Shown here: in pieces, positions 42,509 through 51,752 of the stretch | Position numbering within the stretch: the stretch's first letter is position 1 | Layout: every line of letters starts with the position of its first letter | Assembly: GCA_030167865.1 (NCBI GenBank) | Contig: JALAGF010003431.1 | Coordinates: forward strand, 1 to 51,752 | Direction: 5' to 3' | Source: Craspedostauros australis | Lineage: Eukaryota | Length of the DNA stretch: 51,752 nt | Made by a program: the position numbers and the translations under genes | Notes under the pieces: generated by a model | What the model saw: only the letters and a program-made list of their open reading frames with translations | Told to the model about the DNA's origin: nothing | Databases searched by the model: none

Positions 42509-44782
42509 TCACAGAATATCACGATGATACGCCGCCAGCAATCCCAAACCTGAGAATGCCACAGCGTAGAAACTCAATTCTCCAAGGATCTGCAAATCGC
42601 GCAGCATGGACATGTCGTTGGACATCCACATGCCGTTGGTCGTTTTGGTGTTGGCGTGCACGATCGTTGCATCCGTGTCCTCGCCGCTGCTTACCGACAT
42701 GCTTGTCAGTCCGATGGAGGGGCTGGCCTTGCTGTTGCCAGCATCCTTCGTCGTCGTCTTTTGGCCGTCGATGGCGCCGGCATCGATACCACCAGCACCA
42801 CCATCATCTATGTCATGATCGCGCAGCAACTCGAATCCCCATGATGCCTCTTGCAGTTTGGGATTGCTGCGCGAGACGTTGACGGCTTCGTTCTCCACCC
42901 GAAGCAAACCCCACAACGTTCGCCGCAGGATCTCTGCTGACGCGATCGCTGCATTGAAGTAGGCGGAAACATCGCCTTGGAATGTGGCATTGAGGATGCC
43001 TGCCTTGTTGAGGTAATGGCGCGGTATGAAACTGAGCGTCCAGCAAAATCGCAGAGCGAAATTGATGACGAAGATGCACCAGTAGACGCTGGTGCGGGAG
43101 TAAATCCTCCGCTGTCGGAATTGCAGTCGCGGGAAGGAGGAGAAGATGGATCGCGATGTTGTCCCTATTTTCGCTGCTGTGGCCGAAGTTGTTGTATCGT
43201 CGACGAGCACGAACAAATTCCAATCCATGAAGACATCCCACCAGATCTGGTAGAGCGTGGCGAAGACGAAGGAACCCAGCCAGAGGCTGGTCTGCTTCAT
43301 GTTCGGATTGTAAATGCCAAACAGGGCGACTTGCGCAGCGATGAAGTACTTCAAGGCATTCCCCAGATAAGGCCATCTCTTCTTGTTGTCGTAGGATTGG
43401 CGCAGGTTCTGCAGGAAGCGCCACCACAGCGGGGATGCCACGCACATCGGGAGCAGCCAGGTGTGGAGGATCCAGTTGTTCTCCAAGGGACGGTCGGCGG
43501 TGTCCCACCCGTACGATTGCTCCCACCATCCTCTGAGGCCGGAGAGGAGGTAGAAGCAGGTGAAGCAGATGTCCTGCATGGGACGCACAGAAGATGTGAT
43601 GATATCTCCGATGAAACCATCTCGGAAGGTGACGTTGTGCAAGGGTGCGCTGGTGGTGAGGTAGACGATCTTCCAGAAGTCCTTGCGGCGCGACCATGGG
43701 AGGATGGCCTGGATGACGCTGCCGAAGAATAGGACGAGTGGGAAGACGGGCGCGGCGATGGCGGCGACGCCATGGAGGATGGTGGCATCGGCCATGCCAT
43801 CGACGTATTTGCCACCTTCCGCACTGCTGATGGTGAAGAGGAACAAGGTGATGAGGATGAAGAGGAGGTTGTTCATGGCCGCTTTGGCAAGGTCGAGCGG
43901 ATTGGGAGGCTCCGGCTCCTCCAGCAAAGCCTCCACAATCTCATCGTCATACTCGTCATCGATGCTGCCACCAATAACATCGTTGACGTTGTCCGCATCA
44001 GCATCCATGCTGATTCCATTGCCAACGGCATTGCCTTTGGTGCCACCGTTGTTGTTGCCGCTGATGCTGATGCTGTTGTTGTTGTTGTTGTTGTTGTTGT
44101 TCGAGATTGTAGTTTTCATCGACGTTGGATGAGCTGTGAAACCATCGTTGCCGCCATCATGCAGCGACGAAGGCAGACGTTGCGGTGGCTGCGAAGGAGG
44201 AGAAGACGATGACGAAGCAGAGGCTACCGCTGGTGAACTTGATGATGAAGCTGCTGCTTGATCTTCTACCACCCCGTCGGGCTCCAGTCTTTTCTGTGAC
44301 TGTCCGTGTCTGTGTGATGGATCATCCTCACCGCCGTCAACGCCGTCAACGCCGTTTTCGATATCGTCGTCATCATCGTCGTCGTCGTCTTGATCTGTGT
44401 CATCGGCATCATGGTGCTCGAGATCCCCACCGTAACCACCGACGGATGAGTAAGCCCCGTTCTCTCGAATCATGGCATTGACAACGGCCATCGTGTTGGT
44501 GTCGGGCGCTGGCTGAAAGAGCAGATGACCCACCATCCTGGTCCCCACGGTGCCCGACCAGACCCAGAGGGCCAGCGCCGCACACCACAGCAGCAAATTG
44601 ATCTCGAACAAGGACCGGAAGACCCTGAGGCTGGGTGGGTGCCGCGTGAATGCCGTGACGACCGCGAGATGATGCGGCGGCTCGCCATCGTGCGTTTGGT
44701 TGTCTGTCAGCAGGAAGATGCAGATCAGCAGCGGGATCACCAGCACGGCCCGCCTCAGTATCGAGGAGCGGGTTGCCGCCAT
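42509..44782 (-). CDS. EXS-domain protein (XPR1/SYG1/PHO1/ERD1 family) without an SPX domain
   Basis: ATG 44782. 'VTFRDGFIGDIITS', 'PLWWRFLQNLRQ', 'PYLGNALKY', 'YQIWWDVFMDWNLF', 'NFALRFCW' and 'EILRRTLWGLLRVENE' are EXS motifs. Confidence 0.92.
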   Translation of the reverse strand: MAATRSSILRRAVLVIPLLICIFLLTDNQTHDGEPPHHLAVVTAFTRHPPSLRVFRSLFEINLLLWCAALALWVWSGTVGTRMVGHLLFQPAPDTNTMAVVNAMIRENGAYSSVGGYGGDLEHHDADDTDQDDDDDDDDDIENGVDGVDGGEDDPSHRHGQSQKRLEPDGVVEDQAAASSSSSPAVASASSSSSPPSQPPQRLPSSLHDGGNDGFTAHPTSMKTTISNNNNNNNNNSISISGNNNGGTKGNAVGNGISMDADADNVNDVIGGSIDDEYDDEIVEALLEEPEPPNPLDLAKAAMNNLLFILITLFLFTISSAEGGKYVDGMADATILHGVAAIAAPVFPLVLFFGSVIQAILPWSRRKDFWKIVYLTTSAPLHNVTFRDGFIGDIITSSVRPMQDICFTCFYLLSGLRGWWEQSYGWDTADRPLENNWILHTWLLPMCVASPLWWRFLQNLRQSYDNKKRWPYLGNALKYFIAAQVALFGIYNPNMKQTSLWLGSFVFATLYQIWWDVFMDWNLFVLVDDTTTSATAAKIGTTSRSIFSSFPRLQFRQRRIYSRTSVYWCIFVINFALRFCWTLSFIPRHYLNKAGILNATFQGDVSAYFNAAIASAEILRRTLWGLLRVENEAVNVSRSNPKLQEASWGFELLRDHDIDDGGAGGIDAGAIDGQKTTTKDAGNSKASPSIGLTSMSVSSGEDTDATIVHANTKTTNGMWMSNDMSMLRDLQILGELSFYAVAFSGLGLLAAYHRDIL

Positions 44783-45770: not shown

Positions 45771-47495
45771 ATGAAGCGAAGGGCCAATGCCTCAAAGGCT
45801 CGCATCCCAAAGGCAGCGTTCATCCTTTTGGTTGGGTCGGCCATGGGCGGTGTTGGTGTGGCTGCTTTCATTCCGAGCCCATCTTCAGGCTTGTCACTTT
45901 CGTTGTCACCTTCGTTGTCACCTCCGTTGTCACCTTCGTTGCCATCGAGATCTCCAAGACCTTCAACAAGTTCAACACATTCAATTTCATCATCATCATC
46001 ATCATCATCATCATCGCGACTGACGGCAACTAAGTCACCACCTGGCGTCCCCATCGATGCATCCGGTTGGCCCGGCAAGTTTCCTGCCAAAGAGCATTGC
46101 TCCCGATGCGGGTTGTGCGAAACCACCTACGTCTCGCAGGTGCTCGATGCCTGCGCCTTCCTGGGTCCTTCCATGAGCCGGATGGATCAGCTGGAGCAGG
46201 AGGTGCACGGCCGTCAACGTCGTTACGAGAAGGAGATGGCGTGGTCCGACAAGTTCCTCAAGAAAGGATACACAAAGCCAGAAGCATCGTCGACGGCGAC
46301 GGAAGAATTGCCGGACGAAGGGCGGTTTGGTGTCATGGCGGAGCCCATGAAGTTGGCCAAGGGTATCGACATTCAGGATGCGCAATGGACGGGCGTGGTC
46401 ACGAGTATCGCAGTCAGCATGTTGGAGACTGGGCAGGTCGATGCCGTGGTTTGCATCGGCAACAGCGAGACAGACAGCGAATCAGATGATGCATCATCAT
46501 CATCATCATCGCGGTTTGCGACGCCGGAACCAATTCTGGCACGCACCGTCGACGACGTGCTCAAGGGACGCGGCGTCAAGCCCTCCCTGGCACCGAGCCT
46601 GGCAGTTCTCGATCAGATCGAGCAGGATCCCACCATCCGAAGATTGCTCTACTGCGGCGTGGGGTGCTCCGTGCAGGCATTCCGCATCATCCAGGATACA
46701 TTGAACTTGGAACAGGTCTACGTTCTGGGGACCAACTGCGCGGACAACAGCCCGACACCCAAGGCTGCGCAGAACTTCCTGCAGCAGGGTCTTGATCTCG
46801 ACATGTCCACCGAAGACGTGCAAGGATACGAATTCATGCAGGACTTCCAAGTCCATGTCAAGCTCAAAGATCGCTACATCACCAAACCCTACTTCACCTT
46901 GCCTGGCAATATCGCAGAGCCATCCATCGCGCCATCCTGCTTGACTTGCACGGATTACACCAACGGCCTTGCCGATGTCGTGGTGGGGTACATGGGCGCA
47001 CCGTTGGGCAACGACGGAGGCAGTCAGCGCATGGATGAGGCCTATCAAACCATCACAGTTCGCAACGGCAAGGGCTCGAAGATGGTCAAAACCGCTGTCC
47101 AGCAAGGACGGTTGGCAATCGGAGATGTGGCAACCGGCAAGGGCTCGCATGAAAAACTCGCATCCCAAACGGTCACATCCGACAGCATCATCGTATCTCG
47201 CAGCGGCATCGGCGCAGTCCCGGAACAGGGCATGCCAGCTTGGTTGGGCAACGTCATGGCATTCGTGATCAGCAACACCGGGCCCAAAGGCATTGCCTTT
47301 GCACGGTACTCCATCGATTACCACTTGCTGCGCAACTACTTCTATCTGCTCGACCTGCACGGTTCGCCCCAGATTGCCAAGGACAAGATGCCGCAGTATG
47401 CATGCAACATCGTGCAGCAGTACCTGAAGTCAGACAAGAAGTTGATGGAACTGCAGGGCGCAATTTTGGAAGAGGTGGCGACGCTGAAGCTATGA
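45771..47495 (+). CDS. HCAR: Plastid-targeted FrhB-family Fe-S flavoprotein, 7-hydroxymethyl chlorophyll a reductase (HCAR)-like
   Basis: Bipartite presequence (..AAFILLVGSAMGGVGVAA|FIP plus a Ser-rich transit peptide). Motifs 'PAKEHCSRCGLCET..CAFLG', 'AQWTGVVT', 'CGVGC.VQA', 'VLGTNCADN', 'YEFMQDF', 'APSCLTCTDYTNGLAD..GYMG' and 'GPKGIAFARYSIDYH..RNY'. Confidence 0.9.
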   Translation: MKRRANASKARIPKAAFILLVGSAMGGVGVAAFIPSPSSGLSLSLSPSLSPPLSPSLPSRSPRPSTSSTHSISSSSSSSSSSRLTATKSPPGVPIDASGWPGKFPAKEHCSRCGLCETTYVSQVLDACAFLGPSMSRMDQLEQEVHGRQRRYEKEMAWSDKFLKKGYTKPEASSTATEELPDEGRFGVMAEPMKLAKGIDIQDAQWTGVVTSIAVSMLETGQVDAVVCIGNSETDSESDDASSSSSSRFATPEPILARTVDDVLKGRGVKPSLAPSLAVLDQIEQDPTIRRLLYCGVGCSVQAFRIIQDTLNLEQVYVLGTNCADNSPTPKAAQNFLQQGLDLDMSTEDVQGYEFMQDFQVHVKLKDRYITKPYFTLPGNIAEPSIAPSCLTCTDYTNGLADVVVGYMGAPLGNDGGSQRMDEAYQTITVRNGKGSKMVKTAVQQGRLAIGDVATGKGSHEKLASQTVTSDSIIVSRSGIGAVPEQGMPAWLGNVMAFVISNTGPKGIAFARYSIDYHLLRNYFYLLDLHGSPQIAKDKMPQYACNIVQQYLKSDKKLMELQGAILEEVATLKL

Positions 47496-47705
47496 TGTGG
47501 GTGGGGGGAATACATGAAGTCGAAGTGGTGATTCTTGAAATGCAGCATTATATGTAAATATTAACTTGCGCACTCGTGGAGCGCTCGTGAATTAGATTCG
47601 AATGGCAAAGCACGGAGATGAAATGAAGCATGGATGTGGATGCATTCTTGTGCAAGGATGAAAGTGGAGGGCTTCTCCACGATGGTTGCGGTGAGGATTC
47701 CCTTC

Positions 47706-50700
47706 TCAAACTGCCTGTTCTTGGGCGAGGATGCCTTGGCGGTAGGCATCCAAGGATTCATCGTCATAGAGACAGAAGCAAACTTCCTTGATAGTCTGAT
47801 TTGTGGCTGGCGCCGTGCTGGCCTCCTCCAGGTACTCTGCGATGGCGCCAATGATCCAGGCTGCCGTCTCGCCCTTATCAAGTCCTGCTCTGCCGCTGCC
47901 GATGCTTGGCAACGCCACATTCGCAAAGTTTTGCGAGGCGGCCTTCTTCAGCACGTTCATTACGGCCTTCTTGATCGCCTCCTTCGACCCATTCGCCCCA
48001 TTCGCCTGGCTCTGCGTTGGCGAAACGACAAAGATGATATGGTCGGCCGGCAACGAATGTCCACCTGTCATGCACACATCCGAGGTGCCCAAAGTCTGCG
48101 AGATAGTCGACGTCGATGCTGGCGGCGATGGGGGAGGAGCTGCTACCGCTGGAGGTGCGGATGAGATCTCCAATACGATGAAGCTGTTGGGTGGGATCTT
48201 GCGGTTATGGCTGCTGCTTTGCACAAAGACTTGCGCGCCGGCAGGGAATTGAGCTGGAGCAATGGTCTCCTTCTTGCCGCAACCAATGCCCAGGAAGGTT
48301 CGCGCGTCGTTGCCACGGTGGAATGTGCCATCCGACTCCAAGCACAGGAGGTCCTTGGTGGCTGAGATATTTTCCTTCTTTTGCACGCAATAATACGGCG
48401 TGATGTAAGGCTGGTTCGCCATCGCCGCAATGTCGCGGAAGGTTTTCGTCACCGAGGGTGCAAGGAATTTGCGAAAGTTGAGAGGTAGCCCGCCATTGTT
48501 GTTGGTTGCGGCGTTGGCGTTTGCGTTTGCCAGCGCAGGAGCGGGTGTGGGAGCAGGGGTGGGTGCACCAGTTTGAGAAGCCCTCAGCAAATTGACTTCT
48601 GCTTGCAGGTTGACGCCGGCCACAGCCTTGACGCGTTCGCCCACCATGCCAGAGAGGCTCAATCCAGTGTCAGTTGGCACCACAATGGCTTCTGTCTTGG
48701 ATGCGGCGATGTCGCCCTTCACGACTGTCAGACGCAGACCTTCTACAAACGTTCGACTGTTCAACACCGCCAGGCCAGACGCTGATGGCAACGAACGATC
48801 CTCGCTTTCGAGCTTGATGAATGCAGATCCCGATGTCTTCAATCGCTTTGCTGACGGTTGGGCTGCATTGCCACCACTCTGAGCTGTGCTTGCGGCTGTG
48901 GCTGCTCGTTTGGTTGCTCCCGTCGTCCCGGCTGGGCTGCCGGAAAGGACAGGAGAGCAGAGGTTCCCATCAGCAGCGACTGTTGTCTTGTCTGTAGTCA
49001 AACGCAGCAGGTAGCGGATGTTGACTTGGCCGATGTCGTACACGATGAATTCGCTCACATCACAGCTTGGTCGGGATGCGAGTGATGATTTCGTCGGCTT
49101 GCCCAGCGGAACCTTCACCACGTCCGTGTCGCTCATTGTGTGTTGCTGCTTCGGATCATCTGGGATATCTTCGTACGTTTTGGGATCGGGAATGATGTCC
49201 GACAGTGCATGAGTGGAATGACTCCCAGGCTGCGCTTTGTCCATGTACATGTCCCGTGGCGTTTCGAACACCTTGCCCAGACTCACATCGCATGCCATCA
49301 CGAGCATCTCCGACGACCCATCCGTACGGCAGTAGTTGGCGCTCTTGCCCAGCATATCGGCGAAGTAGATCCCCTTCCCGAATCTGTAACCGCTCATAGG
49401 TGCCTCCGGTGGCGCGATGCGCAATCCCTGGCTGAGGATGCCGCTGTAGTTGCTGATGCGGCTTCCGTGCCACAGCAGCCGCCTGTTGCCCAGCTTCTTG
49501 GAAGGCTCAAATCGTGATGCCTCACCTTCGCGTTGGACCGCAAACGCATCCAGCAACCGCAATCCTCGGCTACCCCAGTTGTTGCCGCCCCAGCCACTCA
49601 CTCCTGGCGCGGATGCGTTCCTGGTGTTCTCGACGTATGTTTTGAGCAGCTTGTACTCATCTCCGTGTGGATCCAATGGTGCGAGTTCGGTTTTGAGCTT
49701 GTCATAGGCCACGTCCATCGGTGACTTGGCCTTGGGTGCTTCGGCATCAGTCTTCATGGCAGCATCGGATGCCTGCAAATTGATCAGTTCGTCCACCATC
49801 TCCACCTTCTCCTTCAACACCGACATGGTGTCGATCATCTTGGGATCCGTGCTGGGGCACTTGGAGTAGAACTGATTTGACAGCTGCTGCAGCTTGCCCT
49901 TCTTCATGACATCCGACATCGACGCTGCGGATGCACCCGATGGCGATGCTGAACCTGCGGCTGATTGTGGATTCAGAATCTTCTCGATCTCCGCCAGCAC
50001 GGAATATGCATCGCGCAGCTGCGCCTCCGTCATGTTGCCGAGCGGCATCTTGGAGACGTCAAAGTTAACACGCAGGAGCTGCTTGGCCGCGATGCCCTTG
50101 TCGAAGATGGAAGCGATGACGGGATGCAATCGCATGCTCAGGCGGGACGTGGAATCGCCGATCAAGAGCTGGTTGCTGGATGCGGATGGGGTGGATGTTG
50201 CCGGTTTCTTCTCGTCTTCGTGGGACACATCCAGTTGGAAGAACTTGCCGGGATGTTTCACGAACGACTTGCGATCCGCCCATTTGTTGCCGGTGTACTT
50301 GAGGTACAGCTTTTCGAATTCGGACTTGGCATCTTGCACCGCATCGTAGCGATCAAGCTTGTTTCCACCGCCTCCGGTACCAGCAACACGACCCCAGACT
50401 CGCCATAAGTAGCAGTGGGTTGGTTGCGGTTCGTTGTCCGGGATGAGGATCTGAAGCCTGTACTGCGAGTTGGTCCCGGTGGATAGATCCGTCATGCAAA
50501 GCATGGTGTCGTAGAGCTCCACCGCAAACGATTCCTTCTTGTCTGGCATCGCTGCAGCAGTCGTTGTGCTCGTGCTTGCACCCGCAGATGGCTTGGAGTT
50601 CTTCAGTGCATCGTACGCCTCATCGAGAACGTGGTACGTCGCATCCTGTCCAGAATCGGGATCGACGCGTGCGCGACTCAGATGCAACTTCGCCGTCCCC

Positions 50701-51566
50701 TTCCGCACCTGCTTGATCTTCATAGGATTGCTGCTGGATCGCTTGTTCTTTGGCAGCAGATGAGGTGGCGTGGGCAGCTTCTTTCCAGTGACGAACAACC
50801 GCGTTTGCGGCGGAATGGGACCGCCCTGCAGCGAGAGAGCGTCCTTGACGGCGTCGTACCATGTGGAGTGATCCGTGTTGACTTCGTCAGGGATTTGAAT
50901 GGACGTGCACTTGGTATCCTCCACACCCTGGCTGTAGGGACATGGTCCCCACGCCAGAGCGGCCTCGCAGACGTAGCAGCAGTAGTAGGTGGAGAAATGC
51001 AACGGTTTGCTCGCGCAGCAGCCATCTTCCTTCTTTCCCAACGGACCGACGCCAAACACGATGGACTCCGCCAGCATGCGCACCAAATCCACTGGGCTGG
51101 TGCCCTTGATGACGGGGATCTTGTTGGCCTCCAGCACGGACTTGACCGCCGCGATGGGAAGCTCCGTCGGTTTCTTCGTGGTGCAATCGCGGATGGCCCA
51201 CACGATATTCGCTTGATCACGCACCGCCTTGACTTCCGCGATCTTCTTCGCATCCGTGCGCTTGGCGTAAGGGCGGTACTTGAGGATGTAGTTCTCAATG
51301 CGAACCTGATCGACAGGACGCAGATCATCGAATCCGCCGATCTCGTCGGTGGACGAGGGTCGGTTGTTCACGGTCTTCTTGGATGCGAAGAAGGCGCTGG
51401 CCTTGCTCCAGTTGGGCTCGAAGCCATCGAAGTGACGGCTCTTCTTCATGACTGCGATGCGCAGCGTGCCCTTCGAAATCGACGACTTTGAGGTCTTGCA
51501 TGTGGAACGCGAGCTCTTCGCGTAATCCGTCATGAACGGAAAGTTGCTGCTGTTGGTGCTCGCCAT
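47706..51566 (-). CDS. PARP1: PARP1-like poly(ADP-ribose) polymerase: degenerate zf-PARP - PADR1/Zn3 - WGR - regulatory - catalytic - C-terminal macrodomain with an inserted domain
   Basis: First ATG 51566. Motifs '[13 protein letters not shown]..FDG', Zn3 '[19 protein letters not shown]', 'WRVWGRV', 'KMPLGNM', catalytic '[43 protein letters not shown]' (H-Y-E triad) and macro '[15 protein letters not shown]'. Confidence 0.95.
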   Translation of the reverse strand: [1286 protein letters not shown]

Positions 51567-51752
51567 GGTCGCTCCTGCTATCCGTTTCTGTCTGCGGCGA
51601 GTATGAGTGTGGTTGTGCTCTGAATGGGTCTTGTTGCTGTGATTGATGATTGATTGTCTCTGATTGAGATTATGAGCCCGATCAGTGAGTCGACCAATCG
51701 TTTGAAATGAAGAGTGTAGTCGAATTTCTGGGATTTTCAAACTAAGCACATA

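What the first reader, a model, noticed from the sequence alone, without database searches (positions are those of the whole stretch)
47706..48780. PARP1 writer fused C-terminally to a macroH2A1.1-like ADP-ribose reader domain
Seen: after the catalytic domain and a basic linker (PSAKRLK) come 'GLAVLNSRTFVEGLRLTVVKGDIA..EAIVVPTDTGLSLSGMVG', 'GGHSLPADHIIFVVSP', 'VALPSIGSGRAGLDKGETAAWIIGAIAEY' and 'IKEVCFCLYDDESLDAY'. From memory this tracks macroH2A ([90 protein letters not shown]). The NAAN hydrolase motif is absent. Established: macroH2A1.1 binds auto-modified PARP1 in trans, and macro-PARPs (PARP9/14/15) have N-terminal macrodomains and no WGR. Inference: a Rosetta-stone fusion giving built-in PAR feedback; BRCT and ZnF2 appear to be missing.
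Basis: partly seen in the sequence, partly recalled or inferred. Interest (0 to 1): 0.8.

Follow-up and report, generated by a model that had tools for sequence, protein, structure and literature searches.

The report
Diatom PARP1 fused to split macrodomain
A diatom-type gene encodes a DNA-damage-type poly(ADP-ribose) polymerase that carries at its tail a macroH2A-like ADP-ribose-binding domain, itself interrupted by a small domain of unknown fold; this rare natural "writer plus reader" fusion does not appear in the papers searched.

Summary
One uninterrupted minus-strand ORF (51566-47706, 1286 aa) encodes zf-PARP, PADR1-like, WGR, PARP_reg and a PARP catalytic domain with the H-Y-E triad, then a macrodomain. 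Its best solved relatives are macroH2A1.1 macrodomains (E 2.7e-21).

About 163 residues replace a 5-residue turn: two disordered linkers and a ~113-aa module. The module folds at pLDDT 93.6 but matches no Pfam family and no solved or viral structure. The two halves still model as a whole macro fold (TM 0.93 to 1yd9).

The fusion is conserved but rare. 4 of the 120 best PARP1-like proteins carry Macro: Seminavis robusta, Stephanopyxis turris, one unnamed record and the deep stramenopile Cantina marsupialis. In the two other diatom-like homologues the module sits at the protein's N-terminus instead.

The glycine matching human G224 is kept in 6 of 6 fused proteins, so ADP-ribose binding is likely but unassayed. 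I found no paper describing a PARP1-type enzyme with a macrodomain. BRCT and a second zinc finger are absent. Verdict: a real new variant, moderately interesting.

The parts
47706..51566 (-). Whole CDS, 1286 codons plus TGA, no intron needed
   Evidence: The start matches the N-terminus of the Seminavis homologue.
51285..51527 (-). Single PARP-type zinc finger (residues 14-94)
   Evidence: Pfam PF00645, E 4.8e-14, one stretch.
51051..51230 (-). PADR1 N-terminal helical region (113-172), weak here
   Evidence: PF21728, E 0.0065, 17.3 bits, below the 25.7 cut-off. Homologues P0003, P0004 and P0158 pass it; Seminavis P0002 (22.1 bits) does not.
50871..51026 (-). Cys-rich Zn3-like ribbon (181-232)
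   Evidence: No Pfam hit. C200 and C209 are invariant in the 7-sequence alignment. The assignment is an inference.
50262..50513 (-). WGR domain (352-435)
   Evidence: PF05406, E 4e-10.
49704..50147 (-). PARP regulatory helical domain (474-621)
   Evidence: PF02877, E 2.5e-24.
48999..49568 (-). PARP catalytic domain (667-856) with H700, Y734, E839
   Evidence: PF00644, E 1.4e-51. The triad is invariant in 7 of 7 sequences.
48777..48998 (-). Low-complexity linker (857-930) with basic KRLK and the conserved 'FIKLESEDRSLPSAS' lead-in
   Evidence: The lead-in is conserved among the diatom homologues.
48570..48776 (-). Macrodomain, N-terminal third (931-999), with D953 and G973
   Evidence: phmmer stretch 7-71 to macroH2A1.1; HMM match 934-999; residues.
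48498..48569 (-). Pro/Ala/Asn-rich linker 1 (1000-1023), predicted disordered
   Evidence: pLDDT below 50 at model residues 75-98.
48159..48497 (-). Inserted ~113-aa module of unknown fold (1024-1136), with conserved KKENxS and VQSSSHNRKIP motifs
   Evidence: AF2 pLDDT 93.6, pTM 0.86. No Pfam, PDB or BFVD match. Homologous modules occur in other protist proteins.
48096..48158 (-). Pro/Ala/Ser-rich linker 2 (1137-1157), predicted disordered
   Evidence: pLDDT below 50 at model residues 212-233.
47709..48095 (-). Macrodomain, C-terminal two thirds (1158-1286), with the PSIGSGRAG loop (1220-1228) and Y1267
   Evidence: PF01661, E 4.5e-14; phmmer stretch 235-354; residues.
47529..47705 (-). Sequence downstream of the stop, covered by the same public contig as the macro C-half (possible 3' UTR, tentative)
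   Evidence: A 681-nt contig of run X1 equals window 47529-48202 with 0 differences. The run's RNA nature is only a guess.

Best explanation
This is a real, single, intron-free gene of a diatom-type alga. It encodes a PARP1-family poly(ADP-ribose) polymerase with one DNA-break zinc finger, a Zn3/PADR1 region, WGR, the autoinhibitory helical domain and an H-Y-E catalytic domain. It has lost BRCT and a second zinc finger and gained a C-terminal macroH2A-like macrodomain.

Shown:
- the domain order and the intact ORF;
- conservation of the fusion in other stramenopiles;
- the macrodomain belongs with the macroH2A-type group;
- its pocket residues are those of the ADP-ribose-binding 1.1 form;
- it is interrupted, in a turn after the first long helix, by a flexibly tethered ~113-aa module of unrecognised fold, and the two halves still model as a complete macro fold.

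Inferred: after DNA-break-triggered automodification, the macrodomain binds ADP-ribose or the ends of PAR chains on the same or a neighbouring molecule. It does not hydrolyse them. This would hold the enzyme on its own product and damp further NAD+ use, which is the job macroH2A1.1 does on PARP1 in trans in animals.

The inserted module is inferred to be a second binding or targeting module, because it recurs at the termini and in tandem in unrelated proteins. In the two full-length N-terminal-module homologues it lies next to the DNA-binding zinc finger. Its ligand is unknown.
For: - ORF of 1286 codons without a stop.
- Pfam: zf-PARP 4.8e-14, WGR 4e-10, PARP_reg 2.5e-24, PARP 1.4e-51, Macro 4.5e-14.
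- H700, Y734 and E839 are invariant in 7 of 7 aligned PARP1-like proteins.
- The five best PDB sequence hits are macroH2A1.1 chains (2.7e-21 to 7e-18). macroH2A1.2 scores 8.3e-15 and matches only in the C-half. macroH2A2 scores 1e-8, PARP14 9e-10 and MacroD-type 1e-5 or weaker.
- The model of residues 925-1286 superposes on macroH2A1.1 (1yd9_B TM 0.93 of target, rmsd 1.8; 7ny6 TM 0.92), with disordered tethers around the module.
- Tree of 132 macrodomains: the 5 diatom-type PARP-fused rows form one clade (SH-aLRT 99). It is sister (91) to a clade (95) holding all 19 histone-fold macroH2A rows. Most of the PARP14-like multi-macro rows lie on the other side of the drawing root, across a weakly supported split (66).
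- Pocket residues: the glycine matching human G224 is G in 6 of 6 fused proteins; D953 is D in 5 of 6; S1224 and G1225 are kept in 6 of 6; an aromatic at 1267 is present in 5 of 5 rows that have the column.
- There is no gap against human 1.1 in either pocket loop. A review states that G224E abolishes binding, that 1.2 has a 3-residue insertion and that macroH2A2 has two proline insertions (PMC8232725, passages).
- The same review states that macroH2A1.1 binds and inhibits automodified PARP-1.
- Same fused architecture in Seminavis robusta (P0002), Stephanopyxis turris MMETSP (P0272/P0004), an unnamed Logan record (P0003) and Cantina marsupialis (P0158).
- A public contig identical to 47529-48202 spans the module end, the macro C-half and the stop.
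Against: - No binding, hydrolase or PARylation assay exists for any member.
- The position matching the macroH2A 'PTN' asparagine is Asp in the 5 diatom-type rows (N only in Cantina), and the loop reads GLDK/GYDK where macroH2A has GFPK. Affinity or specificity may therefore differ.
- The 163-residue insertion could disturb or gate the pocket. The 362-aa model is only moderate (pLDDT 74.7, pTM 0.56, 11 sequences) and says nothing reliable about how the module sits on the macrodomain.
- Nothing covers the junction between the catalytic domain and the macrodomain. The only run found is of guessed type and covers only 47529-48202 plus a short 30-36-base patch at 51671-51708 upstream of the ATG.
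- The tree is a quick, unrooted search on rows chosen by likeness to the query. The sister branch (91) is not starred.
- Cantina's macrodomain does not group with the diatom ones and has S at the D953 position.
Confidence: 0.6

Rival explanations
1. Feed-forward reader. The macrodomain binds ADP-ribose, but its role is to bring or keep the polymerase at chromatin that is already ADP-ribosylated, spreading the signal. It would not cap chains or damp activity.
For: The same pocket-residue and fold evidence applies. The loss of BRCT, an interaction domain in other PARP1s, could be compensated by a PAR-dependent recruitment domain. That last point is an inference.
Against: The nearest characterised relative, macroH2A1.1, is reported to inhibit automodified PARP-1 (PMC8232725, passages). 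Nothing here discriminates between the two outcomes.
Confidence: 0.2
2. Ligand-dead scaffold. As in macroH2A1.2 and macroH2A2, the macrodomain no longer binds ADP-ribose and serves as a protein-interaction or structural domain. The insertion would then be the functional part.
For: The domain is interrupted by a large insertion. Asp replaces the 'PTN' Asn in the 5 diatom-type rows, and D replaces the P of GFPK.
Against: The G224-equivalent is G in 6 of 6. There is no 3-residue or proline insertion in the pocket loops. Pocket loops are conserved across homologues that are only 48-56% identical overall to this protein.
Confidence: 0.12
3. Writer-eraser fusion. The macrodomain is a MacroD-like (ADP-ribosyl)hydrolase that trims the enzyme's own modification.
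For: Macrodomain hydrolases are widespread. MacroD-type chains are weak hits of the C-half (E 2.6e-5 to 1e-3). Two related fragments were auto-named 'O-acetyl-ADP-ribose deacetylase' by a source.
Against: The best relatives are macroH2A macrodomains; that these are non-catalytic is my recollection. From my recollection of the MacroD motifs, the positions of the catalytic Asn and Asp are V963 and G976 here. The N-half gives no significant match to MacroD-type chains.
Confidence: 0.05
4. Annotation or assembly artefact. Two genes (a PARP and a macro protein), or an intron read through, give a false fusion or a false insertion.
For: No read evidence spans the catalytic-macro junction in this organism. 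The protein's exact sequence is not in the 15-billion-protein collection.
Against: One open frame of 1286 codons. The linker and lead-in are conserved in frame in four other full-length proteins, two of them from transcriptome assemblies. The insertion encodes a domain that is conserved at 59-60% identity in P0002/P0006 and folds at pLDDT 93.6. A public contig runs unbroken from inside the module through the macro C-half.
Confidence: 0.03

Closest known systems
PARP1 of animals and other eukaryotes (Clade 1 'DNA repair' PARPs)
   Same: PARP zinc finger, PADR1 region, WGR, regulatory helical domain and catalytic domain with H-Y-E. The best non-stramenopile hits are PARP1 proteins, for example Capsaspora, Naegleria and many animals.
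   Different: Only one zf-PARP stretch, no BRCT, and two extra C-terminal elements: the macrodomain and the inserted module. Neither review of PARP evolution mentions a Clade 1 PARP with a macrodomain in the passages I read (PMC4245714 and PMC2964712).
macroH2A1.1 macrodomain (human 1zr3/3iid, rat 1yd9, Capsaspora 7ny6/7ny7)
   Same: Best sequence and fold match. Shares the N-terminal lead-in strand, the G224-equivalent glycine, the PSIGSGR.G phosphate loop and an aromatic before DxES.
   Different: No histone fold. Attached to a PARP. A 5-residue turn is replaced by a 163-residue excursion. Asp stands in place of the PTN asparagine. It is therefore not a macroH2A histone, only a macroH2A-like macrodomain.
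Macro-PARPs PARP9/14/15 (Clade 3)
   Same: Macrodomain and PARP catalytic domain in one polypeptide.
   Different: There the macrodomains are N-terminal to the catalytic domain (PMC2964712, passages). The PARP14-like protein found here (P0005) lists no WGR, PARP_reg or zf-PARP family. Their macrodomains fall outside the query's 46-row group in the tree, most of them across a weakly supported split. PDB hits to PARP14 macros are 11 or more orders of magnitude weaker than to macroH2A1.1.
Cantina marsupialis PARP1-like protein (P0158, EukProt transcriptome)
   Same: zf-PARP, PADR1_N, WGR, PARP_reg, PARP, then a C-terminal Macro at 1195-1309. 44% identical over the catalytic part.
   Different: It keeps BRCT and has no inserted module. 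Its macrodomain sits on a long branch inside the macroH2A-containing clade rather than with the diatom ones, and has S at the D953 position. One origin of the fusion is neither shown nor excluded.
ALC1/CHD1L (macrodomain fused to an enzyme it regulates)
   Same: Works-like analogy only, from recall: a PAR-binding macrodomain in cis controls the activity of the attached enzyme.
   Different: A different enzyme and a different macrodomain class. Not tested here.

Membership tests
PARP1-type (Clade 1) poly(ADP-ribose) polymerase | WGR + PARP regulatory domain + PARP catalytic domain | tested here: met
   PF05406 4e-10, PF02877 2.5e-24, PF00644 1.4e-51.
PARP1-type (Clade 1) poly(ADP-ribose) polymerase | H-Y-E catalytic triad | tested here: met
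   H700, Y734 and E839 are invariant columns in 7 of 7 sequences.
PARP1-type (Clade 1) poly(ADP-ribose) polymerase | N-terminal PARP zinc fingers Zn1 and Zn2 | tested here: inconclusive
   One zf-PARP stretch only (14-94, E 4.8e-14). A second finger is not detected in this protein or in P0002, P0003, P0004, P0157 or P0158.
PARP1-type (Clade 1) poly(ADP-ribose) polymerase | PADR1/Zn3 | tested here: inconclusive
   PADR1_N scores 17.3 bits, below the 25.7 cut-off. Homologues P0003, P0004 and P0158 pass; Seminavis P0002 (22.1 bits) does not. The Cys cluster aligns.
PARP1-type (Clade 1) poly(ADP-ribose) polymerase | BRCT automodification/interaction domain | tested here: not met
   No BRCT family at E<=0.1. 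There is an alignment gap where P0158, P0157 and P0161 have BRCT. Rhizarian PARP1s are also reported without BRCT (PMC4245714, passage).
PARP1-type (Clade 1) poly(ADP-ribose) polymerase | DNA-break-stimulated PAR synthesis | not testable with these tools
   Needs an enzyme assay.
macroH2A-like class of macrodomains | Macro fold | tested here: met
   PF01661 4.5e-14. Model against 1yd9_B: TM 0.93 of target, rmsd 1.8.
macroH2A-like class of macrodomains | Closer to macroH2A macrodomains than to MacroD, PARP14-type or other classes | tested here: met
   PDB phmmer ranks macroH2A1.1 first, by 11 or more orders of magnitude over PARP14. In the tree the diatom clade is sister (SH-aLRT 91) to the clade with 19 of 19 histone-fold rows. 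This was a quick, unrooted tree on rows chosen by likeness.
macroH2A-like class of macrodomains | ADP-ribose-competent pocket of the 1.1 form (G224 kept, no 3-aa or Pro insertions) | tested here: met
   G973 aligns to the second G of human GGEVG without gaps. It is G in 6 of 6 fused proteins. The criteria come from PMC8232725. Binding itself is untested.
macroH2A histone variant | N-terminal H2A histone fold | tested here: not met
   No Histone family in the protein. In the phmmer screen with a macroH2A N-terminus (19 hits), the PARP-fused proteins were not among the hits.
MacroD-type (ADP-ribosyl)hydrolase | Catalytic Asn/Asp of the NAAN...GGG[VLI]D motifs | tested here: inconclusive
   The motifs are recalled, not taken from a call. 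By position these residues would be V963 and G976. MacroD chains match only the C-half, weakly.
Macro-PARP (PARP9/14/15, Clade 3) | Macrodomain(s) N-terminal to a catalytic domain lacking WGR and PRD | tested here: not met
   Here the macrodomain is C-terminal, and WGR and PRD are present. Clade 3 definition from PMC2964712 passages.

The most novel reading that the evidence does not exclude
The ~113-aa 'KKENxS...VQSSSHNRKIP' module is a previously undescribed protein fold and binding domain of marine protists. It is an obligatory partner of diatom PARP1. It moved from the N-terminus beside the DNA-break zinc finger (Stephanopyxis-type) into a surface turn of the macrodomain (Seminavis-type and this gene). 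There, together with the macrodomain, it forms a composite two-ligand reader: ADP-ribose plus DNA, chromatin or another nucleotide-derived mark. On this reading the PARP1-macro fusion is an ancient stramenopile invention that independently records the PARP1-macroH2A1.1 functional link.
Probability: 0.2. Interest if true: 0.75.

Novelty: new variant of a known kind. Interest (0 to 1): 0.55.

Why it matters
In animals, macroH2A1.1 is reported to bind automodified PARP1 and restrain it (review passages). A natural fusion of the two partners in a distant lineage is independent 'Rosetta-stone' evidence that this link is old and functional.

It also offers a compact, single-chain system for asking how reading ADP-ribose feeds back on writing it. 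Comparable natural variants exist with the macrodomain whole (Stephanopyxis-type) or interrupted (this gene).

It shows that diatoms, whose two first model genomes were reported to have no PARP at all (PMC2964712), can have an elaborate PARP1.

The inserted module is a confidently folding domain with no match in Pfam, the PDB or BFVD. It recurs in at least 12 other protist proteins. It is a new, testable domain family.

Tried and rejected
- **Whole genome:** none is held for this window. I could not ask about PARG, macroH2A or other PARPs in the same organism.
- **RNA evidence:** no RNA holder was listed. The one run found (X1, type guessed) covers only 47529-48202 plus a 30-36-nt patch upstream.
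- **First alignment of the C-terminal region (A1):** it put the N-halves of uninterrupted macrodomains under the module, so I discarded it. A4, anchored by full-length homologues, was checked by eye and used instead.
- **Module, searches without a usable match:**
  - Pfam at E<=10: 0 families for the module itself.
  - PDB sequences at E<=10: 0.
  - Foldseek PDB: best E 0.025, TM 0.20.
  - BFVD: best E 0.023.
  - ESM Atlas: first hit 0.92, to unnamed bacterial clusters, with recognition 1892 below the 2300 mark. I treated this as uninformative.
  - Word-indexed search for longer proteins with the module: only fragment P0006.
- **Earlier findings of the scan:** nothing by place, sequence or words.
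- **Other copies:** tblastn found no second copy of the module, macrodomain or PARP domain in the window.
- **Literature:** seven searches and passages of five papers gave no PARP1-type enzyme with a macrodomain. I did not open the supplementary tables of PMC4245714 and PMC2964712, which list all PARPs and architectures and could contain one. The paper behind 7ny6/7ny7 was not found in the library.
Full report
**What is there**

The minus strand of the window carries one open frame from the ATG at 51566 to the TGA at 47708-47706, 1286 codons with no stop. The frame stays open upstream to the window's end. However, the methionine at 51566 aligns with the first residues of the Seminavis robusta homologue, so I take it as the start.

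Pfam finds the following:

| Domain | Residues | E-value |
|---|---|---|
| zf-PARP | 14-94 | 4.8e-14 |
| PADR1_N (below cut-off) | 113-172 | 0.0065 |
| WGR | 352-435 | 4e-10 |
| PARP_reg | 474-621 | 2.5e-24 |
| PARP catalytic | 667-856 | 1.4e-51 |
| Macro | 1158-1236 | 4.5e-14 |

There is no BRCT family and only one zinc-finger stretch. In an alignment with six other PARP1-like proteins, H700, Y734 and E839 are invariant.

**The macrodomain**

- phmmer of residues 925-1286 against all PDB sequences puts macroH2A1.1 chains in the first five places. These are Capsaspora 7ny6 at 2.7e-21, rat 1yd9 at 2.9e-19, human 1zr3 at 4.2e-19 and two carrier fusions of the same domain.
- macroH2A1.2 follows at 8.3e-15 and matches only in the C-terminal part. 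PARP14 scores 9e-10, macroH2A2 1e-8 and MacroD-type enzymes 1e-5 or weaker.
- An exhaustive HMMER search of 1.84 billion representatives gave 626 hits at E<=0.001.
- After the PARP-fused relatives, the nearest macrodomain hits include histone-fold macroH2A proteins, two of them named 'core histone macro-H2A.1-like' by NCBI. SAP/HeH-macro proteins and PARP14-like multi-macro proteins are also among them.

I built a quick maximum-likelihood tree of 132 macrodomains (179 columns, LG+G4, SH-aLRT support only, unrooted). The rows were the best domain of each hit that filled at least 80% of the profile.

- The five diatom-type PARP-fused domains form one clade (99).
- It is sister (91) to a clade (95) that contains all 19 histone-fold rows, the SAP/HeH-macro rows and the Cantina PARP-fused domain.
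- Most PARP14-like rows lie on the other side of the midpoint root, across a weakly supported split (66).

So 'macroH2A-like' is right as a class. It is not a macroH2A histone, because there is no histone fold.

The PDB match comes in two stretches. Query 7-71 aligns to 7ny6 residues 25-89 and query 235-354 to residues 95-206. About 163 residues therefore replace a 5-residue turn.

An AlphaFold2 model of residues 925-1286 (11-row alignment A4, checked) has mean pLDDT 74.7 and pTM 0.56.

- Two segments fall under pLDDT 50: model residues 75-98 and 212-233, which are protein residues 999-1022 and 1136-1157. They flank a compact alpha/beta unit.
- Foldseek superposes the model on macroH2A1.1 with TM 0.92-0.93 of the target (1yd9_B rmsd 1.8). 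The two halves are thus predicted to come together as one complete macro fold, with the insert hanging from a turn after the first long helix.

**The inserted module**

Residues ~1024-1136 fold on their own with mean pLDDT 93.6 and pTM 0.86 from a 17-row alignment. Nothing recognises the module:

- no Pfam family at E<=10;
- no PDB sequence at E<=10;
- Foldseek PDB best E 0.025;
- BFVD best E 0.023.

A weak match does not prove a new fold, but none was found.

The module is a family:

- 12 of the 150 best representatives match only this part of the query.
- It stands at the N-terminus, at both ends, or in two or three tandem copies separated by charged low-complexity linkers. One of these proteins has a VWA domain. 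One has an F-box-like hit just under Pfam's cut-off.
- Sources that carry names are Odontella aurita, Pseudictyota dubia, Seminavis robusta ('expressed unknown protein') and an EukProt transcriptome of Flectonema neradi. Contamination of the last cannot be excluded.
- Near-invariant residues are E42, K48, P81, S96, N98 and R99 of the module.

**Conservation of the fusion**

The word-indexed search with the catalytic half listed the 120 best of 876 PARP1-like proteins (707-2251 aa, E<=1e-40). 4 of the 120 carry PF01661:

- Seminavis robusta P0002;
- P0004, whose 90% cluster includes Stephanopyxis turris MMETSP0794 (P0272);
- an unnamed Logan record, P0003;
- Cantina marsupialis P0158, a deep-branching heterotrophic stramenopile (placement from recall).

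My own Pfam scans confirm the domain order in P0002, P0003, P0004 and P0158; P0272 is 90%-identical to P0004 and aligns in the same order. P0272 and P0158 come from transcriptome assemblies, so there the fusion is on one assembled transcript.

In Seminavis, and in fragments P0006 and P0011, the module is inserted in the macrodomain as it is here. In P0003 and P0272 the macrodomain is uninterrupted and the module is the first domain of the protein, upstream of the zinc finger. Cantina keeps BRCT and has no module. The module therefore accompanies all four diatom-type full-length proteins but has changed place.

**Is the pocket intact?**

A review states that macroH2A1.1 binds ADP-ribose and that G224E abolishes binding. 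It adds that macroH2A1.2 has a three-residue insertion in the adenine site, that 1.2 and macroH2A2 carry D or E at that glycine, and that macroH2A2 has two proline insertions in the phosphate loop (PMC8232725, passages).

- Here the stretch 929-988 aligns to human 1.1 without a gap.
- SGMVG aligns to GGEVG, so G973 corresponds to G224 by my counting from D203 (that numbering is recalled).
- PSIGSGRAG aligns to PSIGSGRNG without a gap.

| Position | PARP-fused rows (of 6) |
|---|---|
| G973 | G in 6 of 6 (also 19 of 19 histone rows) |
| D953 | D in 5 of 6 (S in Cantina) |
| S1224, G1225 | kept in 6 of 6 |
| 1267 | Y or F in all 5 rows that have the column |

Two differences from macroH2A stand out. 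Asp replaces the PTN asparagine in the 5 diatom-type rows, and GLDK/GYDK replaces GFPK. By position, the residues I recall as catalytic in MacroD enzymes would be V963 and G976. That comparison rests on recall, not on a call.

**Transcription in this organism**

No RNA holder was listed. The one run found is of guessed type. It contains a 681-nt contig identical to 47529-48202, running unbroken from inside the module through linker 2, the macro C-half and the stop, and 177 nt beyond. Apart from a short 30-36-base patch at 51671-51708 upstream of the ATG, nothing covers the rest of the gene.

**Mechanism**

Shown:
- a PARP1-type enzyme with an intact triad is covalently joined to a macroH2A1.1-like macrodomain;
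- the macrodomain's pocket residues are conserved over homologues that are only 48-56% identical overall to this protein.

Inferred:
- The enzyme senses DNA breaks through Zn1, Zn3 and WGR as PARP1 does, and modifies itself.
- The macrodomain then binds ADP-ribose or PAR chain ends in cis or between neighbours, without hydrolysis. This holds the enzyme on its product and limits further NAD+ use, as macroH2A1.1 is reported to do to PARP1 in trans.

My estimates:

| Claim | Probability |
|---|---|
| The fused gene is real | about 0.93 |
| The macrodomain binds ADP-ribose | about 0.7 |
| The net effect is damping rather than recruitment | about 0.4 |

The module is most likely a second binding or targeting unit. 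Its ligand is open.

**Literature**

Seven full-text searches gave no description of a PARP1-type or WGR-containing PARP with a macrodomain. I also read passages of these papers:

- **PMC4245714** places macro-PARPs in Clade 3.
- **PMC2964712** describes Clade 3 macrodomains as N-terminal to the catalytic domain, and lists Phaeodactylum and Thalassiosira pseudonana among the species in its table of PARP-less genomes.
- **A 2026 fungal PARP preprint** found no macrodomain in fungal PARPs.
- **PMC11766942**, on oomycete PARPs, describes WGR-REG-CAT only.

I did not open the supplementary tables. The proteins themselves are in public databases with automatic domain lists, so the architecture is visible there but, as far as I could see, not discussed.

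**Verdict**

It should be completed by the split macrodomain and its unknown module. It is a new variant of known kinds, moderately interesting for ADP-ribosylation biology and for domain evolution.

Noticed in passing
window 45771-47492 (+): The convergent neighbour gene encodes a 574-aa FrhB/FdhB-like protein (PF04432 3e-23, PF04422 2.7e-15). It has an N-terminal hydrophobic leader and a Ser/Pro-rich stretch. Its frame ends at 47495, about 210 nt from the PARP gene's stop, so the two 3' ends nearly touch.
   Followed up: partly
window 42512-44776 (-): An EXS-family membrane protein (PF03124 2.3e-55) with long Asp, Asn and Ser homopolymer runs in its N-terminal half.
   Followed up: partly
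window 51671-51708 (-): A 30-36-nt stretch about 105-140 nt upstream of the PARP start codon equals the first bases of four otherwise different contigs of run X1, which then diverge. It occurs only once in the window. It could be a shared 5' leader, a dispersed repeat or a library artefact. Unexplained.
   Followed up: partly
P0007 and P0013 (Odontella aurita and an unnamed record), central region: Between their N- and C-terminal copies of the module, these proteins share a conserved ~150-aa region (LIWNDIADLDLSC...GGWL[ED]VDMN...) with no Pfam hit. This is another unannotated domain that travels with the module.
   Followed up: no
P0016 (140 aa, unnamed record): A short predicted protein joins the start of the PARP regulatory domain directly to the module. 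It may be a chimeric assembly or an alternative transcript of a related PARP gene.
   Followed up: no
P0158 (Cantina marsupialis), residues ~1040-1110: Between the catalytic domain and the macrodomain there is a further BRCT-like stretch (BRCT_3 E 0.0086, below cut-off). A long acidic insertion lies near the macrodomain's C-terminus.
   Followed up: no
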